Of a stretch of 64,000 bases of DNA, positions 22,559 through 57,932 are shown piece by piece (the stretch's first letter is position 1; every line of letters starts with the position of its first letter). Made by a program: the position numbers and the translations under genes. The stretch is from Leptonemataceae bacterium. Its GTDB lineage: Bacteria > Spirochaetota > Leptospiria > Leptospirales > Leptonemataceae. The DNA lies in assembly GCA_965227295.1 (NCBI GenBank), contig OZ245742.1:4800001-4864000 (forward strand), written 5' to 3'. The notes under the pieces were generated by a model. The model was not told where the DNA came from. It ran no database searches and saw only the letters and a list, made by a program, of their open reading frames with translations.

Positions 22559-22573
22559 ATGGAAAAACGCGCG

Positions 22574-24076
22574 CCAGCGAATCCGCACCCGCTCCGCCCC
22601 GCGGATAGAGTGGGGCTCCGGGGTGCGGATTCGCTGGATGGATCTTTACGACGAAGACGCCGGGGACTTATGCCTTTCGCCGATGCGGAAAGCCGGCGCT
22701 TCAAAACACCGCGCCTGCGAATGACCGAAAGTTTCAGTAATCCAGGAGCTGTTGCTCGCGGCGTTTGCCGTGAGACACATGAGTTAAGTTGCGCAATGGA
22801 GAGGGGATTGATTTGGCTACGGCGAAGCGGGAGTTGTGGTGATTCGTTTTGCAAAGATTGTCCACCTCGACCCGGACGTCGGTTTGTGACTCAGCGATCG
22901 GAACGTTTCTTACGACGAAGACGCCGTTCCGGTCCGCCTTACCATGCTCCCCGGCACAACCTCCGTTCGTCAGCTGAAACCAGCCGCACCCATAAAAGCC
23001 TTAATGTACACTGGCCGTTACTTACACCACGATTCGGGGCGCCTGCGAACTACCGAAAAGTTTTCGGTAGTTCAAGAGCTGTGGTTCGCGTCGTTTGCCG
23101 TGAGAAACATTAGGCAAGTTGCGCTATGGTAAAGGGGTTGATTTGGCTACGGCGAAGCGGGAGTTGTGGTGATTCGTTTTGCAAAGATTGTCCGCCTCGA
23201 CCCGGACGTCGGTTTGTGACTCAGCGATCGGAACGTTTCCTGAGACGAAGACGCCGTTCCGGTGCGCGCCCCACATTTCCCCGGCATGACCTCCGTTCAT
23301 CTGCTGGACCCAGCCGTGCCCATAAAAGTCTAAATCCAAACTGGCCTCAACTTACATCACGATTCGGGGCGTAATCGAAGGAATCAAACGTTTCCGGTAA
23401 TTCAAGAGCCGCGGTTCGTAACGGTTGCCGCGAAAAACATAAAGTCGGTCGCCGCATCATGCAGGGGTTTTTATGGCTACGGCGAAGCGGGAGTTGTGGA
23501 TTTTCGTTTTGCAAAGCACGCTGAAGTCGACCCGGACGCTGGTTGTGCGACTCAGCTATCGTAACGGTTCCCACGACGAAGACGCCGTTCCGGTGCGCCT
23601 TACCACATTCCCCGGCATGACCTCCGTGGTCGCCTGGAACCAGCCGTACCCATAAAAGGCTCAATGTACACTGGCCGTCACTTACTTCACGATTCGGGGC
23701 GTCCGCGAGCAACACGCGCGTTTCCGGTAATTCAAGATCTGTGGTTCGCAACTATTGCCGTGAGAAACATGAAGTAAGTCGCGGAATTGTGAAGGGATTT
23801 TTTTGGCTACGGCTCTTCGGAGTTGTGGTGATTCGTTTTGCCTGGCACGCTGCCAGTGGGGAACCAACTGCCGCGGCCCCAACAAGTGGGGCCTTGCCGA
23901 CACCGGACGCTGGTTGTGCGACTCAGCGATCGGAACGTTTCTTACGACGAAGACGCCGTTCCGGTGCGCCGTACCACATTCCCCGGCATGACCTCCGCAC
24001 GTCAGCTGGAACCAGCCGTACCCATACAATGCTTAATGCACACTGGCCGTCACTTACACCAAGATTCGGGCGTGTT
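22574..24076 (+). repeat. tandem array A of the ~330-bp unit (about 4 units)
   Basis: Anchor ggctacggc at 22815, 23145, 23475 and 23805 (period exactly 330). Confidence 0.95.
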
Positions 24077-24080
24077 CAAA

Positions 24081-25133
24081 TTACTGCGATTGCGTGATCG
24101 TCGTGTACACGACGCTACGCCAGTCGTTGCTGCCGACGATCGTCGGGGTGTAGGTGGTGAGATCGGCGCTGTATTCGATACGGCCGGATTCCGAAACCAC
24201 GACGACGTTCGCGCCGTCGGTGGCCATGTGATGGGCGACACCGAAGACGGCATCCCCGGTGTCCGTGGCGGCCCCGGTGCCGTTGGAAGTCGTATACATC
24301 GTCCCGTCGTCGCCGCCGAGGGCGAAGAGGCCGGCCCCGGAAACAAACGCGGAACCGTTCAGCTCCGCGGAGACGTGCGTGCCGGTCGCATTCGGAAAAC
24401 CGCCGATGGTGGCCGCGGTGTGAATGCTCCCCGTCGCATCTTCCATTAAATAGACGCCGTTCCCGTAGGCGGCGATCACCCAATCCTGCGCACCCGCGTT
24501 GGCGTTGCTCCAGCTGATGCCGTCCGTGGAAGTCGCCCGCACACCGCCGCGCCCGAACGCCACGAAGCCGCCGTTCAAATACTCCACGCCTTCCAGGCGA
24601 TTCCCGAGGGTCAACGTGCGATCGGTCCAGGTAATGCCGTCCGGAGAACTGAGCATGACATCACTGGTACCGGTGCCGCCGACAGCGACGTAGATACCCG
24701 CGCCGAACGCGACGCCCTCCAGGTCCAGACCGGTGCCCGAGCTCTGCGTGGACCAGGTGCCGGCCTCGCCGTTGGTGGAGGTCACGATGCGCCCGCTCGC
24801 GCCCACGGCCACAAAGCCCGCGTCGCCGTATGTCACGCCCCGGAGATCCGCACCACCGACATCCGCGGATTGCCAGTTCGTCTGTCCGTCCTCGGAGTAG
24901 GCGATGGTGCCGCTGTGCCCCACGGCGAGCCAGCGGTTGACGGTCGTGGTCGTCGGTGTGGTCGTCGGGGCGACGGCAGGATCCACGACACTGCTCAAAT
25001 AAAACGGCAGCAGCGCCGAGTCGCTGCATGTGAGATCGGTGCCGTTGCACTCCGGCGACGGCAGGCAGGCGATGGAAAAACCGGAGAATGCGGCCACCAA
25101 CACCGCGAGGATATGCGAACGTAGAGAGGACAC
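24081..25133 (-). CDS. lipoprotein with beta-propeller-like (BNR/Ycf48-like) repeats
   Basis: Lipobox-like FSIAC, Thr/Pro linker and repeated VAVGxSG.I..S.DG..W; start codon uncertain. Confidence 0.75.
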   Translation of the reverse strand: MSSLRSHILAVLVAAFSGFSIACLPSPECNGTDLTCSDSALLPFYLSSVVDPAVAPTTTPTTTTVNRWLAVGHSGTIAYSEDGQTNWQSADVGGADLRGVTYGDAGFVAVGASGRIVTSTNGEAGTWSTQSSGTGLDLEGVAFGAGIYVAVGGTGTSDVMLSSPDGITWTDRTLTLGNRLEGVEYLNGGFVAFGRGGVRATSTDGISWSNANAGAQDWVIAAYGNGVYLMEDATGSIHTAATIGGFPNATGTHVSAELNGSAFVSGAGLFALGGDDGTMYTTSNGTGAATDTGDAVFGVAHHMATDGANVVVVSESGRIEYSADLTTYTPTIVGSNDWRSVVYTTITQSQ

Positions 25134-25257
25134 CGAACAGTATAGAGTAACGATCTTTAGACGCGCCGCCTGAAGAAAAAGTTCAGCTTCAATACATGCT
25201 GGCTTGATTTTATTCATATATGTTGACCGATCGGCCGGTAGCCGCGAATCGGTCAAC

Positions 25258-25629
25258 ATGGCGGAACCGGTCCTGCTCTTCGGCGAATTTCTCCTGCGCA
25301 ACGGAGTCATTTCCTCCGCCCATTTGCTCGAAGCCCTGGAGTACCAGAAGGAAACCATGCGCGTCCTCTCGGTGATGGGTTTTCTGGAACACGGCCTCGA
25401 AGAAAACGATCGCAAACAACTCTTCGAACGTATTTCCTCCGGCGAAAGTCCCGAGGCCGCCGCCGCGGAACTCGGTTTCCTGAGCGCCGCCGAACTCGAA
25501 GACGTCTTTCGCGCGAACAAGGACTTCCGCCTGCCCGTGGCCGCTACTTACACCACGATTCGGGGCGTGTGCGAACGGACAAAATGTTTTCGGCAGTTCA
25601 AGAGCTGTGGTTCGCGGCGTTTACCGTGA
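25258..25629 (+). CDS. MshEN-like motif protein, apparently truncated by repeat array B
   Basis: LFGEFLLRNGVISSAHLLEALEYQK; the last ~30 codons and the stop lie inside the repeat. Confidence 0.6.
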   Translation: MAEPVLLFGEFLLRNGVISSAHLLEALEYQKETMRVLSVMGFLEHGLEENDRKQLFERISSGESPEAAAAELGFLSAAELEDVFRANKDFRLPVAATYTTIRGVCERTKCFRQFKSCGSRRLP

Positions 25630-26654
25630 GAAACGTAAGGTAAGTTGCAATATGGTGAAGGGATTTTTTGGCTACGGCTCTTCGGAGTTGTGGTGATTCG
25701 TTTTGCAAAGCACGCTGGAGTCGACCCGGACGTCGGATTGCGACTCAGCCATCGCAACGTTTCTCACGACGAAGACGCCGTTCCGGTCCGCGCCCCACAT
25801 TTCCCCGGCATGACCTCCGCTCGTCAGCTGGAACCAGTTGTAACCTTAAAAGGCTTAATTTACACTGGCCGCTACTTACACCACGATTCGGGGCGTGTGC
25901 GAACGGACAAAATGTTTTCGGCAGTTCAAGAGCTGTGGTTCGCGGCGTTTGCCGTGAGAAACGCAAGTTAAGCTGCAATATGGTGAAGAGATTTTTTGGC
26001 TACGGCTCTTCGGAGTTGTGGTGATTCGTTTTGCAAAGCACGCTGGAGTCGACCCGGACGTCGGATTGCGACTCAGCCATCGCAACGTTTCTCACGACGA
26101 AGACGCCGTTCCGGTCCGCGCCCCACATTTCCCCGGCATGACCTCCGCTCGTCAGCTGGAACCAGCCGTACCCACAAAAGGCTTAATATACACTGGCCGC
26201 TACTTACACCACGACTCGGGGCGTGTGCGAACGAACAAAATGTTTCCGGTAGTTCAAGAGCTGTGATTCGCAGCGTTTGCCGTGAGAAACATAATGTAAG
26301 CTGCTCAATCATGAAGCCATTTTTTTGGCTACGGCGAAGCGGGAGTTGTGGTGATTCGTTTTGCCAAGAATGCTGCGTTCGACCCGGACGCTGGTTGTGC
26401 GACTCAGCTATCGTAACGTTTCCCACTACGAAGACGCCGGGGACTTATGCTTTCCGCCGATGCGGAAAGCCGGCGGTTCAGAACTCTCGCTGAAGCGAGA
26501 ATTCTGCCGGTGCGCCCTACCATGCTCCCCGGCGTGACCTCCGTGGTCGCCTGGAACCAGTTGTAACCATAAAAGGCTTAGTATACATCGACCGCCACTT
26601 ACACCACGATTCGGGGCCTACTTGAACTAACAAATGTTTTCCGTAGTTCAAGAG
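25538..26654 (+). repeat. tandem array B of the ~329-bp unit (about 3.3 units)
   Basis: Anchor ggctac at 25670, 25998 and 26327 (periods 328 and 329); the first two units are nearly identical. Confidence 0.95.
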
Positions 26655-27772
26655 TCGAAAAAATCTTCCCGGGCAAAATCGCCGGTACCGCCCGCCAGTT
26701 CATGATCGTAGAGCTCCGGAATCATCAGTTGCACCTTCCAGCGTAAGGCGATGCCGTGGGTCTGTCCGAGGCCCGCCGGCGGATAGAGCGCGCGAAAGAC
26801 CGGGGCAAAGGCGACTTCGCCGTCGAAGTACTCCTCAATGCGGCCTCGGGGTGGAATGCGCTCCACGGACTGCTCGTACAAAACAACAACACGCGATGGA
26901 ACCTCAAAGCCCGAATCGTCCCGGGCCCAACGGCGCAGACTCCCCGCCAGGTCGCCGCGCTGACCGCATTCGATGTTGTAAGCGATGATGCGGAGCGTCG
27001 GGCCGACCAGACCGGCTTCAGTGTATCCTGTAAGTAATTTACGAATCGATGTTACGCTATCCCGGCGGATGCGCGCAGGTCGTTTCCGCCAGGCAATGCT
27101 CGCAAAAGAACGCAACAGCAACCACATCGTTTTCAAGAGTGCGGCGGTAATCATTCCACCGAACCCGAACGTAAAAATGAGGACAAATAACCATTCATCC
27201 GCAGTGTACGATGCCAGGTCCACGAAACGGTAGACGATGGTACCGTAGAGGGACCAGCAAGTGATAAGCACCGTCCCAAGGCCGACCATGCCCCACTTCA
27301 ACCGCGCCGGCACGATCCGAAAGTTTCGCCCCGCATGCGAATCGTCCCGCGGTGCAACGATCGCTTCCGCCGGTCGTTCCACCGCCGGGGCGCGGGGCGG
27401 CAGTTCCAGGCGTACCTCTTCTTCGATGACGTCGTCGGGAGCCGGGCCGGGAGTTTTTATCAACAGCTTCGCATACAAACGCAGGTCGATTTCGCGGCCG
27501 TTATAAGAATAAAACGGCAGGCGCCGCGCGTCGATGCGGCGTTCAAATTCGCCACGACCGTCGAAAGTGAAGTGCAGTCGATATACCGTTTCGCGCCGGT
27601 GCAGTTCCAGGGGCGGCCGGACCTCCACGCGCACGTCCAGTTCCAGTTCCGCACTACGGCCGGCGTAAACCTCTCCGGTCTGGATCTTAAGCACGCAGAG
27701 GACTTTGTCTTTTTCCCGGACGTGCCGGAGTGAAACGGCGCCGCCGGAAATCTCTATCTGACGCGGCCGCAC
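26648..27772 (-). CDS. hypothetical two-TM protein (paralog 1 of a local family)
   Basis: Shares YSYxGxxI, LRIIAYNxExGQ and YFxxExxFxxVFRxLYPP with 31800-32941. Confidence 0.75.
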   Translation of the reverse strand: MRPRQIEISGGAVSLRHVREKDKVLCVLKIQTGEVYAGRSAELELDVRVEVRPPLELHRRETVYRLHFTFDGRGEFERRIDARRLPFYSYNGREIDLRLYAKLLIKTPGPAPDDVIEEEVRLELPPRAPAVERPAEAIVAPRDDSHAGRNFRIVPARLKWGMVGLGTVLITCWSLYGTIVYRFVDLASYTADEWLFVLIFTFGFGGMITAALLKTMWLLLRSFASIAWRKRPARIRRDSVTSIRKLLTGYTEAGLVGPTLRIIAYNIECGQRGDLAGSLRRWARDDSGFEVPSRVVVLYEQSVERIPPRGRIEEYFDGEVAFAPVFRALYPPAGLGQTHGIALRWKVQLMIPELYDHELAGGTGDFAREDFFDS

Positions 27773-40765: not shown

Positions 40766-42048
40766 ATGGGCGCGCCTGCCGTGATCGATTCTCCCGGGAC
40801 TTCCACGCGACTCCGCGACGTTCTGGTCGTGGACGACGATCCCATGACCGCACGACTCATTGCGCACATTCTGCGCGAGACGTGCACGGTGCGCTCCGCT
40901 GAGAACGGCAGCGAGGGCCTCCGTCACATGCGGCATCGGCGTCCGGAACTTATCCTCTGCGATCTCATGATGCCGGGCATGAACGGTCAGGAGTTCTTCG
41001 CCGCCGTCAAGAATCGGCCCGAATGGCGTCAGTGCCGCTCATCTTTCTCACGGCCCGCTCGGATCCCGAGGATCGCGCTGACGGTCTGGAGTTCGGCGCG
41101 GACGACTACATCGTAAAACCATTCTACCCCCGGGAGCTCCGGGCCCGGGTACACTCGCTCTTAAAGTTACGCGAGTATCAGTTAGCCGTCGCCGATCGCA
41201 ATCGGATCATCGAGGAGGAGCTGGACATTGCCGGGCGCATCATGCAGGAACGCATCCTGCCCACCAAAATGCCGGCGTTGCCGTGCATGCGCGCGCATCC
41301 CATCTACCGCCCCATGGACAAGATCGGCGGGGACTTTTACGACGTCATCGACTTCGGTGAACGCCGCGGCCTCATTATTGCCGACGTCTCCGGCCACGGC
41401 ATCCCCGGTGCGTTCATCGCCGCGCTGACGCAAATGGCCTTTCGCCTGTGCACGTCCCGGGGCGGAGAGCCGCATGAAATCTTACAACGAATCAACGAGG
41501 AATTGCTGCAACGCTGCCTGGAAGAATTCTTCGTCACCGCCATTTATCTCGAGTACGATCCCCGGCAACGAACCATCCGCTATTGCAACGCCGGCCATCA
41601 GTGCCGGCCGGTTTTGTACCGCAACGGTGAAGTCCACGTATGGGACGGCGCATCGAGTTATCCTCTGGCCATCGTGGAGGAACTGGATGGGACGACGGAA
41701 ATCGAACAGGTTCAGCCCGGCGATCGATTGTTCTTGTACACCGACGGCATCATCGAGTGCGATGACGGCGAAGAAGTCTACGGCGACGAGCGCTTTCACG
41801 CCTTTCTTCGAGACGAGGGCCACACATCGCCCGAGGATCTTGAAGACCGCCTGCTCGGCGAGTTGCGTAAATACAGCGGCAAGGATTCCTTCTCGGACGA
41901 TCTGACCATGTTGATCCTGGAGTTTCTCGAACGCCCGGCCGGAATCAGGCCCGGCAACACAACGGGAGCGGAGTCGCACAACCAGCGTCCGGGTCCGATT
42001 GAATCACGGCCAAACCTTCACAGCCGCCCCGGACCGCAGGGTAAGTGA
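40766..42048 (+). pseudogene. response regulator receiver plus SpoIIE/PP2C phosphatase (RsbU-like) with a 1-nt frameshift near 41030
   Basis: The receiver domain ([14 protein letters not shown]) continues in another frame as [20 protein letters not shown]2C motifs GGDFYD, DVSGHG, YTDG and DDLT. Confidence 0.8.
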
Positions 42049-42815
42049 CGGCCAGTGCAGCCACAGCTCTTGAACTACGGTATCGTTTTGTTCGTTCGAA
42101 CACGCCCCGAATCGTGGTGTAAGTCGCGGCCAGTGTATATTAAGATCATTTTGGTTACAACTGATTCCAGCTGACGAACGGAGGTCATGCCGGGGGATGT
42201 GGTAAGGCGGACCGGAACGGCGTCTTCATCGTAAAGATCCAGCAAGCGAATCCGCACCCCGGAGCCCCGCTCTATTCGCGGGGCGGAGCGGGTGCGGATT
42301 CGCGCCTTGCAAAACGAATCACCACAACTCCGAAGAGCCGTAGCAAAAATAATCCCTTCATGATTGCACAACTTACTTTACGTTTCTCACGATAGACGCC
42401 GCGAACCACAGCTCTTGAACTACGGTATCGTTTTAGTCGTTCGAACACGCCCCGAATCGAGGTGTAAGTAACGTCCAGTGTACATTAAGCTTTTTTTGGT
42501 TACAACTGATTCCAGGGGCAAGGCCACGCTTGTCGTGGCCGCGGCAGTTGTTCCCCTCCCACGGAGGTCATGCCGGGGAAATGTGGGGTGCGCACCGGAA
42601 CGGCGTCTTCGTCGCAGGAAACGTTACGATAGTTGAGTCGCAAACCGACGCCCGGGTCGACTCCGGCGTGCTTTGCAAAACGAATCACCACAACTCCGAA
42701 GAGCCGTAGCAAAAAAAAATCCCTTCATGATTGCACAACTTACCTTACGTTTCTCACGGTAGACGCCGCGAACAAGGCGCACCGGAACGGCGTCTTCGTC
42801 GCAGGAAACGTTACG
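41971..42815 (-). repeat. array C of the ~329-bp unit, inverted (about 2 units plus fragments)
   Basis: Reverse-complement blocks (ccacaactccgaagagccgtagc, cgccccgaatcg, accggaacggcgtcttc) occur repeatedly. Confidence 0.92.
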
Positions 42816-42878
42816 GAAACGGTTCCCATGCTCCGCTTGGGACTTGACACGCGTCCGGTTCTTCACGATCTTTCCCGT

Positions 42879-55109: not shown

Positions 55110-56561
55110 GTGAAGACCGTCGCCATCGCCGGCGCGGGCGGTTTCATCGGCCGCACGCTCATCGACAAAGCCCTGCGGGCTAAGTTCCACATCGTCGGGC
55201 TCAGTCGCAGCGCCCCGCCCGGCCACACCGACACCAGCGGCATTGAATGGCGCCGCTGCGACCTCTATTCCCTCCTCGATGCCGAAGCCGCGCTAGAGGG
55301 CGTGGACTACGCCGTGTATCTCGTGCACTCCATGCTGCCGAGCGCGCGGCTCATTCAGGGAAACTTCGCGGATACGGATCTGATCCTCGCCGACAATTTC
55401 GCCCGCGCGGCCCGCAAGAACAAACTGAAACACATCGTATATTTAGGCGGGATCATTCCGAACGAGGGCGAAGCCGAAGATGAAACGAAGTTAAGCGAAC
55501 ACCTGCGCTCGCGACTGGAAGTGGAACGCACGCTGGGCGGCCGCGGGACGCCCCTCACCGCGGTGCGCGCCGGTCTCGTGGTGGGTCCGGGCGGTTCCTC
55601 GTTTTCGATTCTGGAAAAACTGGTGCAACGCCTGCCCATGATGATCTGTCCGGCCTGGACGAACACGCGGTCCCAACCGGTGGCGCTGGAAGATGTGATC
55701 ACCGCCATCGATTACTGCATCGGCCGCAAAGCGAGCTACGGCCGCAGCCTGGATGTCGCCGGCCCGGACGTCCTCACGTACCGCGAAATGATGGAGATTA
55801 CCGCGAAGAGCATGGGACTCCGCCGGTTCTTGTTGACCGTGCCGTTCTTTTCACCGCGTCTTTCAAAACTCTGGGTCTCTTTGTTTTCCGGCGCTTCGAT
55901 GAACCTGGTCTCACCGCTCATCGAAAGCCTGAAGCACGAGATGGTGGCGCGCCCCGATCCTTTAACCGAAAAGATGCCGCTGAAACGAATCGGTTTTCGC
56001 GAGGCCGTGCAGGAATCGGTGCACGCACCGCAAAACAATCCGTCGCCGTTTCGCATCAAACGTCTGCTTCAGAATCGTTATCGCGTTACCAAGTTCGTGC
56101 GTTCTATTCAACGCCTGCCACGTCCGGCCGGTCGCGACGCGCTCTGGATTGCCAGGGAGTACGGACGCTGGCTCCCGCGATTCCTCTGGCCTTTTTTGCG
56201 CGTAACGACGAACGACAACGGGGACTGTGCGTTTTTTATTCGCGGCCTGCCGTTTTCGTTGCTGGAGCTGGAACTCTCGTCGGAACGCAGCAGCCCGGAC
56301 CGTCAGCTCTACTACATTACCGGCGGTATCCTGGCGGAACAAACCCGGCGCGGGCGTCTGGAATTTCGCATTGTGCCCGACGGCGAAAGCGTGCTTGCGG
56401 CCATCCACGACTTCGCTCCGGCTTTGCCGTGGTTCGTGTACAACTACACCCAGGCCCTGGTCCATCTTATGGTCATGCGCCACTTCGGCCGCCACCTGGA
56501 TAAACTGGACCGGCTCGCGGCCGTTACCGTGAAGAAAAGAGAGTATGTCGTGAAACAGTGA
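55110..56561 (+). CDS. NAD(P)-binding epimerase-like protein with C-terminal extension (YbjT-like)
   Basis: AGAGGFIG, YLVHSM and SEHLRSRLEVE motifs. Confidence 0.85.
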   Translation: MKTVAIAGAGGFIGRTLIDKALRAKFHIVGLSRSAPPGHTDTSGIEWRRCDLYSLLDAEAALEGVDYAVYLVHSMLPSARLIQGNFADTDLILADNFARAARKNKLKHIVYLGGIIPNEGEAEDETKLSEHLRSRLEVERTLGGRGTPLTAVRAGLVVGPGGSSFSILEKLVQRLPMMICPAWTNTRSQPVALEDVITAIDYCIGRKASYGRSLDVAGPDVLTYREMMEITAKSMGLRRFLLTVPFFSPRLSKLWVSLFSGASMNLVSPLIESLKHEMVARPDPLTEKMPLKRIGFREAVQESVHAPQNNPSPFRIKRLLQNRYRVTKFVRSIQRLPRPAGRDALWIAREYGRWLPRFLWPFLRVTTNDNGDCAFFIRGLPFSLLELELSSERSSPDRQLYYITGGILAEQTRRGRLEFRIVPDGESVLAAIHDFAPALPWFVYNYTQALVHLMVMRHFGRHLDKLDRLAAVTVKKREYVVKQ

Positions 56562-57917
56562 AGGGTCTTTTTTGGCTACGGCTCGCGGGAGTTGTGGAGT
56601 TTCGTTTTGTTAAGAACGCTTACTTCGACCCGGACGCTGGTTGTGCGACTCAGCTACGATAGCGATTCTTGCGGCAAAGACGCCGGGGACTTATGCTTTC
56701 CGCTGATGCGGAAAGCCGGCGGTTCAGAACTCTCGCTGAAGCGAGAATTCTGCCGGTGCGCCTTACCACATTCCCCGGCATGACCTCCGTGCGTCAGCTG
56801 GAACCAGTTGTACCCGAAAAGGGCTTAATTTACGTTGGCCGCTACTTACATCACGATTCGGGGCGTGTTCGAACGAATCAAACGTTTCCGGTAGTTCAAG
56901 AGCCGCGGTTCGTTCACGTTGCCGTGAGAAACAGAAGGTATGTTGCACAATGTTGAAGGGGTTGATTTCGCTACGGCTCGCGGGAGTTGTGGAATTTCGT
57001 TTTGTTAAGAACACTGCGTTCGACCCGGACGTCGGTTTGCGAGTCAGCTACCGCAGCGTTTCTTACGGCGAAGACGCCGTTCCGGTGCGCGCCCCACATA
57101 TCCCCGGCACAACCTCCGTGGTCGCCTGGAACCAGTTGTGACCATAAAAGTCTTAATCCAGATTGGCCTTAACTTACACCACGAGTCGGGGCGTGCTCGA
57201 ACAAATAAAAACGTTTCCGGTAGCTCAAGAGCTGTGTCTCGCGACGTTTGCCGTGAGACACACAAGGTAAGTTCCGCAATGGTGAAGGGATTGATTTGGC
57301 TACGGCTCTTCGGAGTTGTGGAGTTTCGTTTTACAAAGAACGTTTGCTTCGACCCGGACGTCGGTTTGCGAGTCAGCTACCGCAGCGTTTCTTACGGCGA
57401 AGACGCCGTTCCGGTGCGCGCCCCACATATCCCCGGCACAACCTCCGTGGTCGCCTGGAACCAGTTGTGACCATAAAAGTCTTAATCCAGATTGGCCTTA
57501 ACTTACACCACGAGTCGGGGCGTGCTCGAACAAATAAAAACGTTTCCGGTAGCTCAAGAGTCGCGGTTCGTAGCGGTTGCCGCGAGAAGCATGAAGTACA
57601 TTGCGCAACCGTGAAAGGCCTTTTTTGGCTACAGCGAAGCGGGAGTTGTGGTATGTCGTTTTGCTAAGAACGCGGCATTCGACCCGGACGCTGGTTTGCG
57701 ACTCAGCTACCGCCGGTGTCTCTTGCGGCGAAGACGCCGGGGACTTATGCTTTCCGCCGATGCGGAAAGCCGGCGGTTCAGAACTCTCGCTGAAGCGAGA
57801 ATTCTGCCGGTCCGCCTTACCACATTCCCCGGCATGACCTCCGCCAGTGGGGAACCAACTGCCGCGGCCCCAACAAGCGGGGCCTTGCCGACACCGGACG
57901 TTGGTTTGCGACTCAGC
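56523..57917 (+). repeat. tandem array D of the ~329-bp unit (about 3.7 units)
   Basis: Anchor at 56574, 56969, 57298 and 57627 (395 including an inserted module, then 329 and 329). Confidence 0.95.
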
Positions 57918-57932
57918 TTCCCCCGATGAAAC

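What the first reader, a model, noticed from the sequence alone, without database searches (positions are those of the whole stretch)
25625..25870. The ~329-nt unit appears to fold on one strand, with G-U-compatible variation
Seen in array B: hairpin ctacggctc-TTCG-gagttgtgg (25672-25693; cUUCGg loop, three G-U pairs); a perfect 12-bp long-range pair cgtgagaaacgt (25625-25636) with acgtttctcacg (25757-25768); gttccgg/ctggaac (25780-25834); and ccagt/actgg. Variation often preserves pairing. ctacAgc near 57629 turns a G-U into A-U. The 3' arm of the long-range stem varies as ttct(c/t)(a/g)cg(a/g)c, mostly C/T opposite G and A/G opposite T. The hairpin gctgtg-gtt-cgcggc becomes gctgtg-att-cgcagc. 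These wobbles would be A-C mismatches on the other strand. Some copies (e.g. near 23430 and 23570) pair poorly. Inference: selection on a single-stranded structure, probably RNA, in the orientation of arrays A, B and D.
Basis: partly seen in the sequence, partly recalled or inferred. Interest (0 to 1): 0.75.

Follow-up and report, generated by a model that had tools for sequence, protein, structure and literature searches.

The report
Intergenic tandem repeat, one conserved hairpin
A 329-base non-coding unit repeated in four intergenic arrays of a bacterial chromosome carries one hairpin that folds on one strand only, but the larger RNA fold proposed for the unit is not borne out by the thirteen copies that could be compared.

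Summary
Across the 13 units in the window, only one holds up. The hairpin CTACGGC...GTTGTGG (25672-25693) keeps its seven outer pairs in 13 of 13 units under three different loops. It folds at -9 to -14 kcal/mol on the + strand and not on the - strand. A tail with 7-8 U in 12 nt follows it in every unit.

The 12-bp long-range stem is perfect only in B1. Over all units it shows 16 G-U cells and 18 A-C cells, so it favours neither strand. Whole-unit consensus folding equals column shuffles on both strands (z -0.12 and -0.11). No Rfam family matches.

A weaker + strand domain (25580-25705) is suggestive only.

The element is a non-coding tandem repeat seen only in this genome. It has sequence-conserved blocks and optional palindromic modules, and it sits mostly between convergent genes. 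My best reading is a repeat carrying a terminator-like or 3'-end hairpin. No copies outside the window could be obtained, so statistical power is low.

The parts
22570..24080 (+). Array A. It holds a partial first unit (module-Y hairpin plus a truncated 65-nt insert), four units (A1-A4) and a 3' stub that abuts the stop codon at 24081-24083 of the convergent 378-aa gene.
   Evidence: TRF period 330. nhmmer hits 22603-24085. Boundary sequence.
25538..26657 (+). Array B. Units B1, B2 and B3 (B3 with the 65-nt insert) plus a 66-nt stub. The finding lies in B1.
   Evidence: TRF period 328. nhmmer. Sequence.
42059..42822 (-). Array C, in the opposite orientation. It holds a fragment, C1 (with a 45-nt hairpin insert), C2 (with module Y) and a stub. 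Degenerate unit pieces continue to about 41957, inside the 3' end of the SpoIIE-domain ORF.
   Evidence: blastn and nhmmer. Sequence.
56511..57921 (+). Array D. Units D1 (65-nt insert), D2, D3 and D4 (65-nt insert, then the 45-nt hairpin and a unit fragment).
   Evidence: TRF period 329. nhmmer. Sequence.
25672..25693 (+). Hairpin H1 of unit B1 (CTACGGCTC-TTCG-GAGTTGTGG), followed by TGATTCGTTTTG. The homologous hairpin is in all 13 units. Its 3' arm GGAGTTGTGG starts at 22830, 23160, 23490, 23819, 25684, 26012, 26342, 56588, 56983, 57312 and 57642 on +, and runs 42697-42688 and 42331-42322 on -.
   Evidence: Pattern found 13 times against 0.03 expected. Folds. Sliding windows. 8 of 13 are flagged terminator-like by the scan. 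U count in the tail.
25625..25636 (+). The stem is perfect only in B1.
25757..25768 (+).
25580..25705 (+). Suggestive + strand domain, not established. P1 is 25580-25586 with 25699-25705 (an A-rich segment pairing with the U tract after H1). P2 is 25587-25596 with 25621-25631. A small hairpin is 25602-25605 with 25610-25613. H1 completes it.
   Evidence: alifold z -3.03 (0 of 150 shuffles) on + against -0.06 on -, for a region chosen after looking. The unbiased scan's best window gives z -2.26 (2 of 70) among 20 tests. Mapping. No covariation signal.
26439..26508 (.). Optional 65-70-nt two-hairpin insert between GACGCCG and CCGGT in unit B3. The same insert is at 56685-56754 (D1) and 57739-57808 (D4). 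A truncated copy is at 22662-22703 (A0).
   Evidence: Alignment. blastn. Fold -39.8 on + and -45.2 on -.
42244..42306 (.). Optional module Y, a near-perfect long hairpin that replaces unit positions ~175-222 in C2. A second copy is at 22577-22635, at the start of array A.
   Evidence: Fold -49.9 / -49.5 kcal/mol on the two strands.
23860..23905 (.). Optional ~45-nt insert with a 7-bp hairpin, in unit A4. Other copies are at about 42517-42560 (C1, at a different place in the unit) and 57851-57895 (end of D).

Best explanation
The 329-nt unit is a non-coding intergenic tandem repeat, found so far only in this genome. It is a mosaic of sequence-conserved blocks, hypervariable patches and optional palindromic modules. 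It is not a unit-wide folded RNA.

This is hairpin H1 with its U-rich tail.

My reading of how it works has three steps.
1. The arrays are transcribed in the sense direction, mainly by read-through from the co-directional gene upstream. This is inferred.
2. H1 then works as an intrinsic terminator or a protective 3'-end hairpin. This is inferred from its anatomy.
3. The palindromic modules in the units next to genes give hairpins to transcripts arriving from either side. This is also inferred.

The arrays probably grew and diversified by unequal recombination between units. The mosaic sharing of alleles between arrays is shown; the mechanism is inferred.
For: Non-coding nature:
- Periods are 328-330 with 1-nt indels between units.
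- Array ORFs have GC3 of 0.47-0.48, against 0.67-0.81 for the seven flanking genes and ORFs computed with them.
- Array ORFs match no Pfam family.

H1:
- The stem is intact in 13 of 13 units under three loop alleles.
- It is stable on + only.
- 7-8 U follow within 12 nt in 13 of 13 units.
- 8 of 13 are flagged terminator-like.
- The first H1 begins 42 nt after the stop of the upstream + ORF in B (25629) and 14 nt after it in D (56561).

Placement:
- Arrays A and D fill the gap between convergent genes that have Pfam-supported domains.
- A starts 12-19 nt after the SDR stop, with the -50 kcal/mol module-Y hairpin.
- No sigma-70-like promoter sits at a shared unit position in 3 or more units on either strand.

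Modules and constraint:
- Palindromic modules are in 7 of 8 edge units and 0 of 6 internal units (Fisher p = 0.0023; without the partial unit A0, 6 of 8 against 0 of 5, p = 0.016).
- Units are 68-97% identical, and adjacent units are no closer than units of different arrays.
- 131 of 328 columns are invariant and strongly clustered (runs test z -5.8).
Against: - The U tract is interrupted (TGATTCGTTTTG) and starts 1-4 nt after the stem.
- Terminator-like sites are not enriched over shuffles in these regions: 6 against 5.9 and 30 against 24.4.
- If the first H1 terminates efficiently, internal units would not be transcribed. They nevertheless keep the same invariant blocks, which points to a function of every unit.
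- Array C lies between two + genes in antisense orientation, so no co-directional gene feeds it.
- The ORF upstream of B (25258-25629) is annotated in the genome but has no homologue and no family.
- The edge-unit pattern was noticed after the fact.
- There are no transcription data.
- The two longest Watson-Crick consensus helices show G-U 21 against A-C 2. A + strand domain at 25580-25705 scores z -3.0. More RNA structure than H1 alone may therefore exist.
Confidence: 0.4

Rival explanations
1. Each unit is its own small-RNA gene. The first ~170 nt (to the H1 terminator) would be the RNA. The last ~160 nt, conserved in sequence but unstructured, would be its promoter and regulatory region. 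The arrays would then be a multi-copy sRNA family.
For: - Signs of structure on + are confined to the 5' half. For unit positions 40-172, single-unit z averages -1.54 on + against -0.15 on - over 11 units.
- For the same region, alifold gives z -3.03 on + against -0.06 on -. For positions 173-328 it gives z -0.17 and -1.02.
- The block ACGAAGACGCCGTTCCGGTCCGC is invariant yet folds worse than all 200 shuffles.
- Every unit keeps the blocks.
- An AT-rich stretch precedes unit position 1.
Against: - No sigma-70-like promoter at a shared position in 3 or more units, and none in the tool scans.
- The domain signal does not survive correction. The best of 20 window tests is z -2.26, 2 of 70.
- There is no covariation.
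- No Rfam match.
Confidence: 0.22
2. A DNA-level element. It could be a selfish or neutral satellite, or an array of protein-binding sites. The conserved blocks would be read as double-stranded DNA, and the hairpins would be incidental or form cruciforms.
For: - Conservation is at the level of sequence, not of pairing. H1's arms are invariant rather than covarying.
- The optional modules are true palindromes, equally stable on both strands.
- Overall counts of G-U and A-C are balanced.
- The core unit folds no better than shuffles.
- The motif TTCCGGT occurs twice, and CCGG four times, in invariant blocks.
Against: - H1 has three invariant G-T positions. They make it a hairpin on one strand only (z -5.0 against about 0), and its loop is exchanged while its stem is kept.
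- No candidate binding protein or mobile-element gene lies in the window.
Confidence: 0.25
3. The whole ~329-nt unit would fold as one RNA, with the long-range stem plus several helices. It might be processed from tandem transcripts to unit length by self-cleavage or ligation.
For: - All named helices exist in B1, and the 12-bp stem is rare for B1 (2 of 1000 shuffles).
- The + strand has more conserved potential helices than -: 131 against 90 of >=4 bp, and 19 against 8 of >=6 bp.
- RNAalifold on + has 6 pairs with a compensatory sequence, against 0 on -.
- Optional hairpins sit where loops could be.
Against: - The long stem is perfect in 1 of 13 units, with G-U 16 against A-C 18.
- The shuffle control is 453 of 500.
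- alifold z is -0.12.
- The structure conservation index, computed only for sub-regions, is 0.36-0.44 on +.
- Units without optional modules (A2, A3, B1, B2, C1, D2, D3) give z of +0.42 to -2.35.
- The + strand is G+T-rich (52.2%), which favours wobble pairs by composition.
- No ribozyme or other Rfam model matches array B at E up to 10 on either strand.
- Another unit, A2, has its own perfect 13-nt palindrome elsewhere. Unit-specific perfect repeats therefore occur.
Confidence: 0.08

Closest known systems
REP/BIME-type bacterial interspersed mosaic elements (recalled from general knowledge, not from a call)
   Same: Extragenic. Placed at gene 3' ends and between convergent genes. A mosaic of palindromic modules and other motifs in tandem. 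Hairpins that could act on transcripts from either side.
   Different: The unit is ~329 nt rather than tens of nt. Most of the unit is conserved non-palindromic sequence. Units are 68-97% identical. Genome-wide copy number is unknown. No REP-associated transposase gene is in the window.
Intrinsic (Rho-independent) terminators
   Same: A stem-loop of 9-10 pairs with a stable tetraloop, followed by a U-rich tail. Strand-specific. Lies 14-42 nt after an upstream ORF's stop in arrays B and D.
   Different: The stem has three G-U pairs and only 4 G-C pairs. The U tract is interrupted. The structure recurs every 329 nt inside a long conserved unit. Activity is untested.
Tandem arrays of small-RNA genes, such as the cyanobacterial NsiR1 array (recalled, not from a call)
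   Same: Head-to-tail repeats, each ending in a terminator hairpin. The copies have diverged but keep conserved blocks.
   Different: No promoter was recognised in the unit. There is no evidence of transcription. The unit is longer.
Ribozyme-bearing tandem repeats (animal satellite transcripts, retrozymes) (recalled)
   Same: A tandem unit of a few hundred nt.
   Different: No self-cleaving ribozyme model matches. The setting is a bacterial chromosome with no reverse-transcriptase gene nearby.

Membership tests
Structured non-coding RNA with a conserved unit-wide fold | Helices supported by covariation | tested here: not met
All-pairs count: the excess is equal on both strands. Only 13 related copies, so power is low.
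Structured non-coding RNA with a conserved unit-wide fold | Folding energy better than shuffled controls | tested here: not met
   alifold z -0.12 on + and -0.11 on -. B1 z -1.0. Units without optional modules z +0.42 to -2.35. Met locally for H1 only.
Structured non-coding RNA with a conserved unit-wide fold | Match to a described RNA family | tested here: not met
   0 matches at gathering score in the whole window. In array B, only two chance-level matches at E = 3.6.
Structured non-coding RNA with a conserved unit-wide fold | Transcribed from the proposed strand | not testable with these tools
   No expression data were available.
Self-cleaving ribozyme repeats (retrozyme or satellite type) | A recognisable ribozyme core in each unit | tested here: not met
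   The Rfam covariance models found nothing on either strand of array B at E up to 10. That the library includes the self-cleaving ribozyme classes is recalled, not shown by the call.
Intrinsic terminator | Stable stem-loop on the transcribed strand | tested here: met
   -14.0, -9.1, -12.3 and -9.5 kcal/mol on +, z -5.0 to -2.4. The three equivalents folded on - give -1.0 to -4.1.
Intrinsic terminator | Uninterrupted U tract directly after the stem | tested here: inconclusive
   7-8 U in the 12 nt after the stem in 13 of 13 units, but interrupted. 8 of 13 pass the scan's rule. The 5 with a 9-nt loop do not.
Intrinsic terminator | Lies downstream of a co-directional gene | tested here: inconclusive
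   True for A and D. True for B only if the homologue-less 123-aa ORF is real. Not true for C.
REP/BIME-type mosaic intergenic repeats | Extragenic, at gene 3' ends, with palindromic modules combined in tandem | tested here: met
REP/BIME-type mosaic intergenic repeats | Short palindromic unit in high copy number across the genome | tested here: not met
   The unit is 329 nt and mostly non-palindromic. Genome-wide copy number could not be measured, because only the window was available.
Miniature transposable element | Terminal inverted repeats at the unit ends, and a related transposase | tested here: not met
   The inverted repeats in B1 are internal, not terminal. No transposase, integrase or reverse-transcriptase domain was found among the ORFs scanned. 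The outer ends of the arrays were not searched for target duplications.
Protein-coding tandem repeat | Period a multiple of three, open frame, coding base composition | tested here: not met
   Periods 328-330 with 1-nt indels. GC3 of 0.47-0.48. No Pfam family. No protein relatives beyond the window's own ORFs.

The most novel reading that the evidence does not exclude
Every unit is a gene for a ~130-170-nt RNA seen only in this lineage. In B1 it would span about 25580-25705. It would be a three-helix domain, closed by an A-rich segment pairing with the U tract behind H1. About 160 nt of sequence-conserved, unstructured control DNA would drive it. The four arrays would then be a previously unseen multi-copy RNA family parked at gene ends.
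Probability: 0.15. Interest if true: 0.55.

Novelty: new variant of a known kind. Interest (0 to 1): 0.33.

Why it matters
If the units act only as hairpin-bearing filler between genes, this is an ordinary case of bacterial intergenic repeats, though with an unusually long unit. What keeps it from being trivial is the conservation pattern. Units have diverged to 68-89% identity (apart from B1/B2 at 97%), yet they keep 131 invariant, clustered columns. Such constraint on every copy calls for a function that no known family explains here. A deep alignment plus transcript-end mapping would settle whether the element is an RNA family, a terminator cassette or a DNA-binding array.

Tried and rejected
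1. Copies outside the window. My single scan of genome contigs used a 17-base pattern taken from the invariant blocks.
2. Plasmid and phage collections. blastn found no match.
3. Spurious ORFs as a proxy for copies elsewhere. The 165-aa array ORF found only the window's other array ORF. The 184-aa array ORF found only itself among 1.84 billion representatives. These searches cover one reading frame and one length range.
4. Coding repeat. Rejected.
5. Ribozyme or other known RNA. Rejected. tRNA and tmRNA: none.
6. A sigma-70 promoter in each unit. None was found.
7. A terminator/antiterminator switch between GAGCTGTGGT (25602-25611) and H1. The direct repeat exists. By my rough estimate a 10-mer with one mismatch is about what chance gives, and the alternative pairing fails in units with other loop alleles: 24 of 125 cells are mismatched.
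8. Literature. Five searches found nothing on this element (and passages of one preprint).
Full report
WHAT IS THERE

The window looks like an ordinary bacterial chromosome segment of about 60% G+C. It holds housekeeping genes and no transposase, integrase or reverse-transcriptase domains among the ORFs scanned. The window's own proteins sit on a contig of 5,938,550 bp. The nearest named relatives of one flanking protein include Verrucomicrobiae and Limisphaerales records.

A unit of about 329 nt occurs head to tail in four intergenic arrays. In nhmmer coordinates these are A 22603-24085 (+), B 25538-26657 (+), C 42059-42822 (-) and D 56511-57921 (+). By eye, array A begins at about 22570. I aligned 13 units, some of them partial (alignment A1).

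The units are old. Pairwise identity is 68-89%, apart from B1/B2 at 97% and D2/D3 at 88%. Neighbouring units are no more alike than units of different arrays. Even so, 131 of 328 core columns are invariant and strongly clustered (runs test z -5.8). Variant alleles are 127 transitions and 142 transversions.

The unit is not coding:
- Periods are 328-330, with 1-nt indels between units.
- GC3 of the array ORFs is 0.47-0.48, against 0.67-0.81 for the seven flanking genes and ORFs computed with them.
- The array ORFs match no Pfam family.

CHECKING THE OBSERVATION

The question is whether they are more than chance and whether the other units keep them.

- **12-bp stem.** It is unusual for B1: 2 of 1000 shuffles reach 12 bp. 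The consensus unit's longest perfect inverted repeat is 7 bp, which 894 of 1000 shuffles reach. The stem is perfect in 1 of 13 units. Over all units it has 110 Watson-Crick, 16 G-U, 18 A-C and 11 other cells. It therefore pairs as well on the - strand (128 of 155) as on the + strand (126 of 155).
- **ccagt/actgg.** 46 WC, 6 G-U, 5 A-C and 3 other cells over 12 units.
- **Shuffle control.** Dealing the 3' letters out anew gives 87.1 +/- 0.4%, and 453 of 500 shuffles are at least as high. The covariation score is 0.092 against 0.098.
- **Strand balance.** Helices defined by Watson-Crick complementarity alone, which is symmetric between strands, show G-U 170 against A-C 178 (49 helices of >=5 bp, p = 0.71) and 65 against 61 (14 helices of >=6 bp). 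At >=4 bp there are more A-C than G-U cells (590 against 510). The two 7-bp helices go the other way, with G-U 21 against A-C 2. Both involve the A-rich segment at unit positions 43-51.
- **Compensatory pairs.** Column pairs that look compensatory exceed within-column shuffles by the same margin on both strands: 136 against 109 +/- 9 on +, and 112 against 91 +/- 7 on -. Shared descent produces this pattern without any structure.

THERMODYNAMICS

- B1 folds at z -1.0 on + and -0.02 on -.
- Over 12 units, the seven without optional inserts (A2, A3, B1, B2, C1, D2, D3) give z from +0.42 to -2.35 on the sense strand and from +1.47 to -0.56 on the antisense strand. Units with inserts are strongly negative on both strands.
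- Consensus folding of nine full units equals column shuffles: z -0.12 on + and -0.11 on -.
- RNAalifold gives -25.4 kcal/mol on + (covariation term -1.34; 6 of 48 pairs have a compensatory sequence). It gives -23.4 on - (covariation term 0; 0 of 25 pairs).
- These values are far too weak for a conserved 330-nt fold. They give the + strand only a small edge, part of which is composition, since G+T is 52.2%.

WHAT DOES HOLD: HAIRPIN H1

The seven outer pairs CTACGGC/GTTGTGG pair in 91 of 91 cells. The two apical pairs hold in 8 of 13 units. The loop comes in three alleles on the same stem: UUCG in 6 units, GCGG in 2 and GAAGCGGGA in 5.

On the + strand the four H1 segments folded give -14.0 (z -5.0), -9.1 (-2.4), -12.3 (-3.3) and -9.5 (-2.7) kcal/mol. 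The three equivalents folded on the - strand give -1.0 to -4.1 (z -0.03 to -1.1).

In a 50-nt sliding scan of nine units, only the three windows over H1 were consistently stable, and only on + (mean z -1.4 to -2.2; 5-6 of 9 units below -1.5, against 0 of 9 on -).

Every H1 is followed by 7-8 U within 12 nt (13 of 13). The scan tool of 13 terminator-like.

The arms are invariant rather than covarying. The evidence is therefore the exchange of loops plus strand-specific stability, not covariation.

A POSSIBLE LARGER + STRAND DOMAIN

Unit positions 43-169 (B1 25580-25705) can form a closing helix between the A-rich segment and the U tract behind H1. A second stem, a small hairpin and H1 complete the domain.

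- alifold gives z -3.03 (0 of 150 shuffles) on + and -0.06 on -.
- Single-unit z averages -1.54 on + and -0.15 on - over 11 units.
- I chose this region after looking. In an unbiased scan of 133-column windows, its best value was z -2.26 (2 of 70) among 20 tests.
- The pair count is 95.6% of 319 cells, identical to shuffles (369 of 500 as high), because nearly all variation is one-sided.
- In four units the minimum-energy fold replaces H1 with an alternative helix.

I rate this domain as suggestive only.

OPTIONAL MODULES

Three inserts occur only inside arrays.
- A 65-70-nt two-hairpin insert is in B3, D1 and D4, with a truncated copy in A0. It sits between GACGCCG and CCGGT.
- Module Y is a long hairpin that replaces part of the unit in C2 and at the start of array A.
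- A ~45-nt hairpin is in A4, C1 and the end of D.

All three contain palindromic hairpins. The first two are far more stable than shuffles on both strands: module Y at -49.9 and -49.5, and the 65-nt insert at -39.8 on + and -45.2 on -. The insert is better on - because a C-A mismatch becomes a G-U pair there. The 63-66-nt segments holding the 45-nt insert are not significantly stable (z -0.4 to -1.4), although its 7-bp hairpin forms.

The modules occur in 7 of 8 edge units and 0 of 6 internal units (Fisher p = 0.0023). Leaving out the partial unit A0 gives 6 of 8 against 0 of 5 (p = 0.016). This pattern was noticed after the fact.

SETTING

- Arrays A and D fill the space between convergent genes with Pfam-supported domains.
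- Each array's 3' end, in unit orientation, lies within about 12 nt of the stop codon of a convergent ORF: 24081, 26648, 42048 and 57933.
- B follows a 123-aa + strand ORF (25258-25629) that runs 92 nt into the array. The ORF is annotated in the genome but has no homologue or family.
- C lies between two + genes in antisense orientation.
- The first H1 starts 42 nt (B) and 14 nt (D) after the upstream ORF's stop. A opens with the module-Y hairpin 19 nt after the SDR stop.
- No sigma-70-like promoter sits at a shared unit position in three or more units on either strand.

INTERPRETATION

I commit, at 0.4, to a non-coding mosaic tandem repeat seen only in this genome. Its one robust single-stranded feature is a terminator-like or 3'-end hairpin on the sense strand. 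It would be transcribed mainly by read-through, with palindromic modules serving transcripts from either side.

The chief weakness is that internal units keep the invariant blocks. That suggests each unit does something.

The rivals are:
- units as separate sRNA genes (0.22);
- a DNA-level binding array or satellite (0.25);

COMPARISON WITH KNOWN SYSTEMS

No Rfam family matches. The element behaves most like REP/BIME-type mosaic repeats at gene ends and like intrinsic terminators. It differs from both in unit length and in its long non-palindromic conserved blocks. These family descriptions are recalled, not taken from a call.

Five literature searches found nothing on it. For some searches I saw search listings. 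For one preprint on prokaryotic non-coding elements I saw passages on short-period arrays.

LIMITS

All statistics rest on 13 related copies from one 64-kb window. My only genome-collection scan was wasted on a pattern that was too unspecific. Plasmid and phage collections hold no copy. Protein searches with array ORFs found only the window's own ORFs. The global fold is therefore unsupported, not disproved.

Noticed in passing
22577-22703; 23860-23905; 26439-26508; 42244-42306; 42517-42560; 56685-56754; 57739-57895: Optional palindromic modules occur only in the first or last units of arrays: 7 of 8 edge units against 0 of 6 internal units (Fisher p = 0.0023). Edge units are the ones next to gene ends.
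   Followed up: partly
23875-23893; about 42522-42540 (-); about 57866-57884: The 7-bp hairpin in the ~45-nt insert differs between its three copies by changes on both sides that keep pairing (GGCCCCA...TGGGGCC against GGCCACG...CGTGGCC). The third copy has one A-C mismatch. This is the clearest compensatory change in the arrays, but it says nothing about strand.
   Followed up: partly
24081-25217 (-), between arrays A and B: Arrays A and B lie in the same orientation on either side of one 378-aa gene. Its relatives carry PF25852 and sorting or beta-propeller-type annotations. An older single array may have been split, or the two arrays may have arisen separately.
   Followed up: no
25258-25629 (+); 41929-42048 (+); 56511-56561 (+); 26648-26657 (-): Flanking ORFs run into the arrays, so their last codons and stop codons are supplied by repeat sequence. 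The 123-aa ORF takes 92 nt of B1. The last ~40 codons of the SpoIIE-domain ORF overlap degenerate antisense unit pieces. The 483-aa ORF ends 51 nt inside D1. The 374-aa ORF's stop lies in the B stub.
   Followed up: partly
23047-23073: Unit A2 alone has a perfect 13-nt palindrome with a 1-nt centre. The other units are imperfect at this position. Together with B1's 12-bp stem, this shows that unit-specific perfect inverted repeats occur.
   Followed up: partly
25766-25795 and homologous blocks: The invariant block ACGAAGACGCCGTTCCGGTCCGC folds worse than all 200 shuffles (z +1.93). It is conserved and unstructured, as a binding site would be.
   Followed up: no
25602-25611 and 25685-25694: The direct repeat GAGCTGTGGT / GAGTTGTGGT lets the upstream copy pair with the 5' arm of H1 (11 bp in units with the UUCG loop). 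In four units this alternative helix replaces H1 in the minimum-energy fold of the 133-nt domain. It may be chance.
   Followed up: partly
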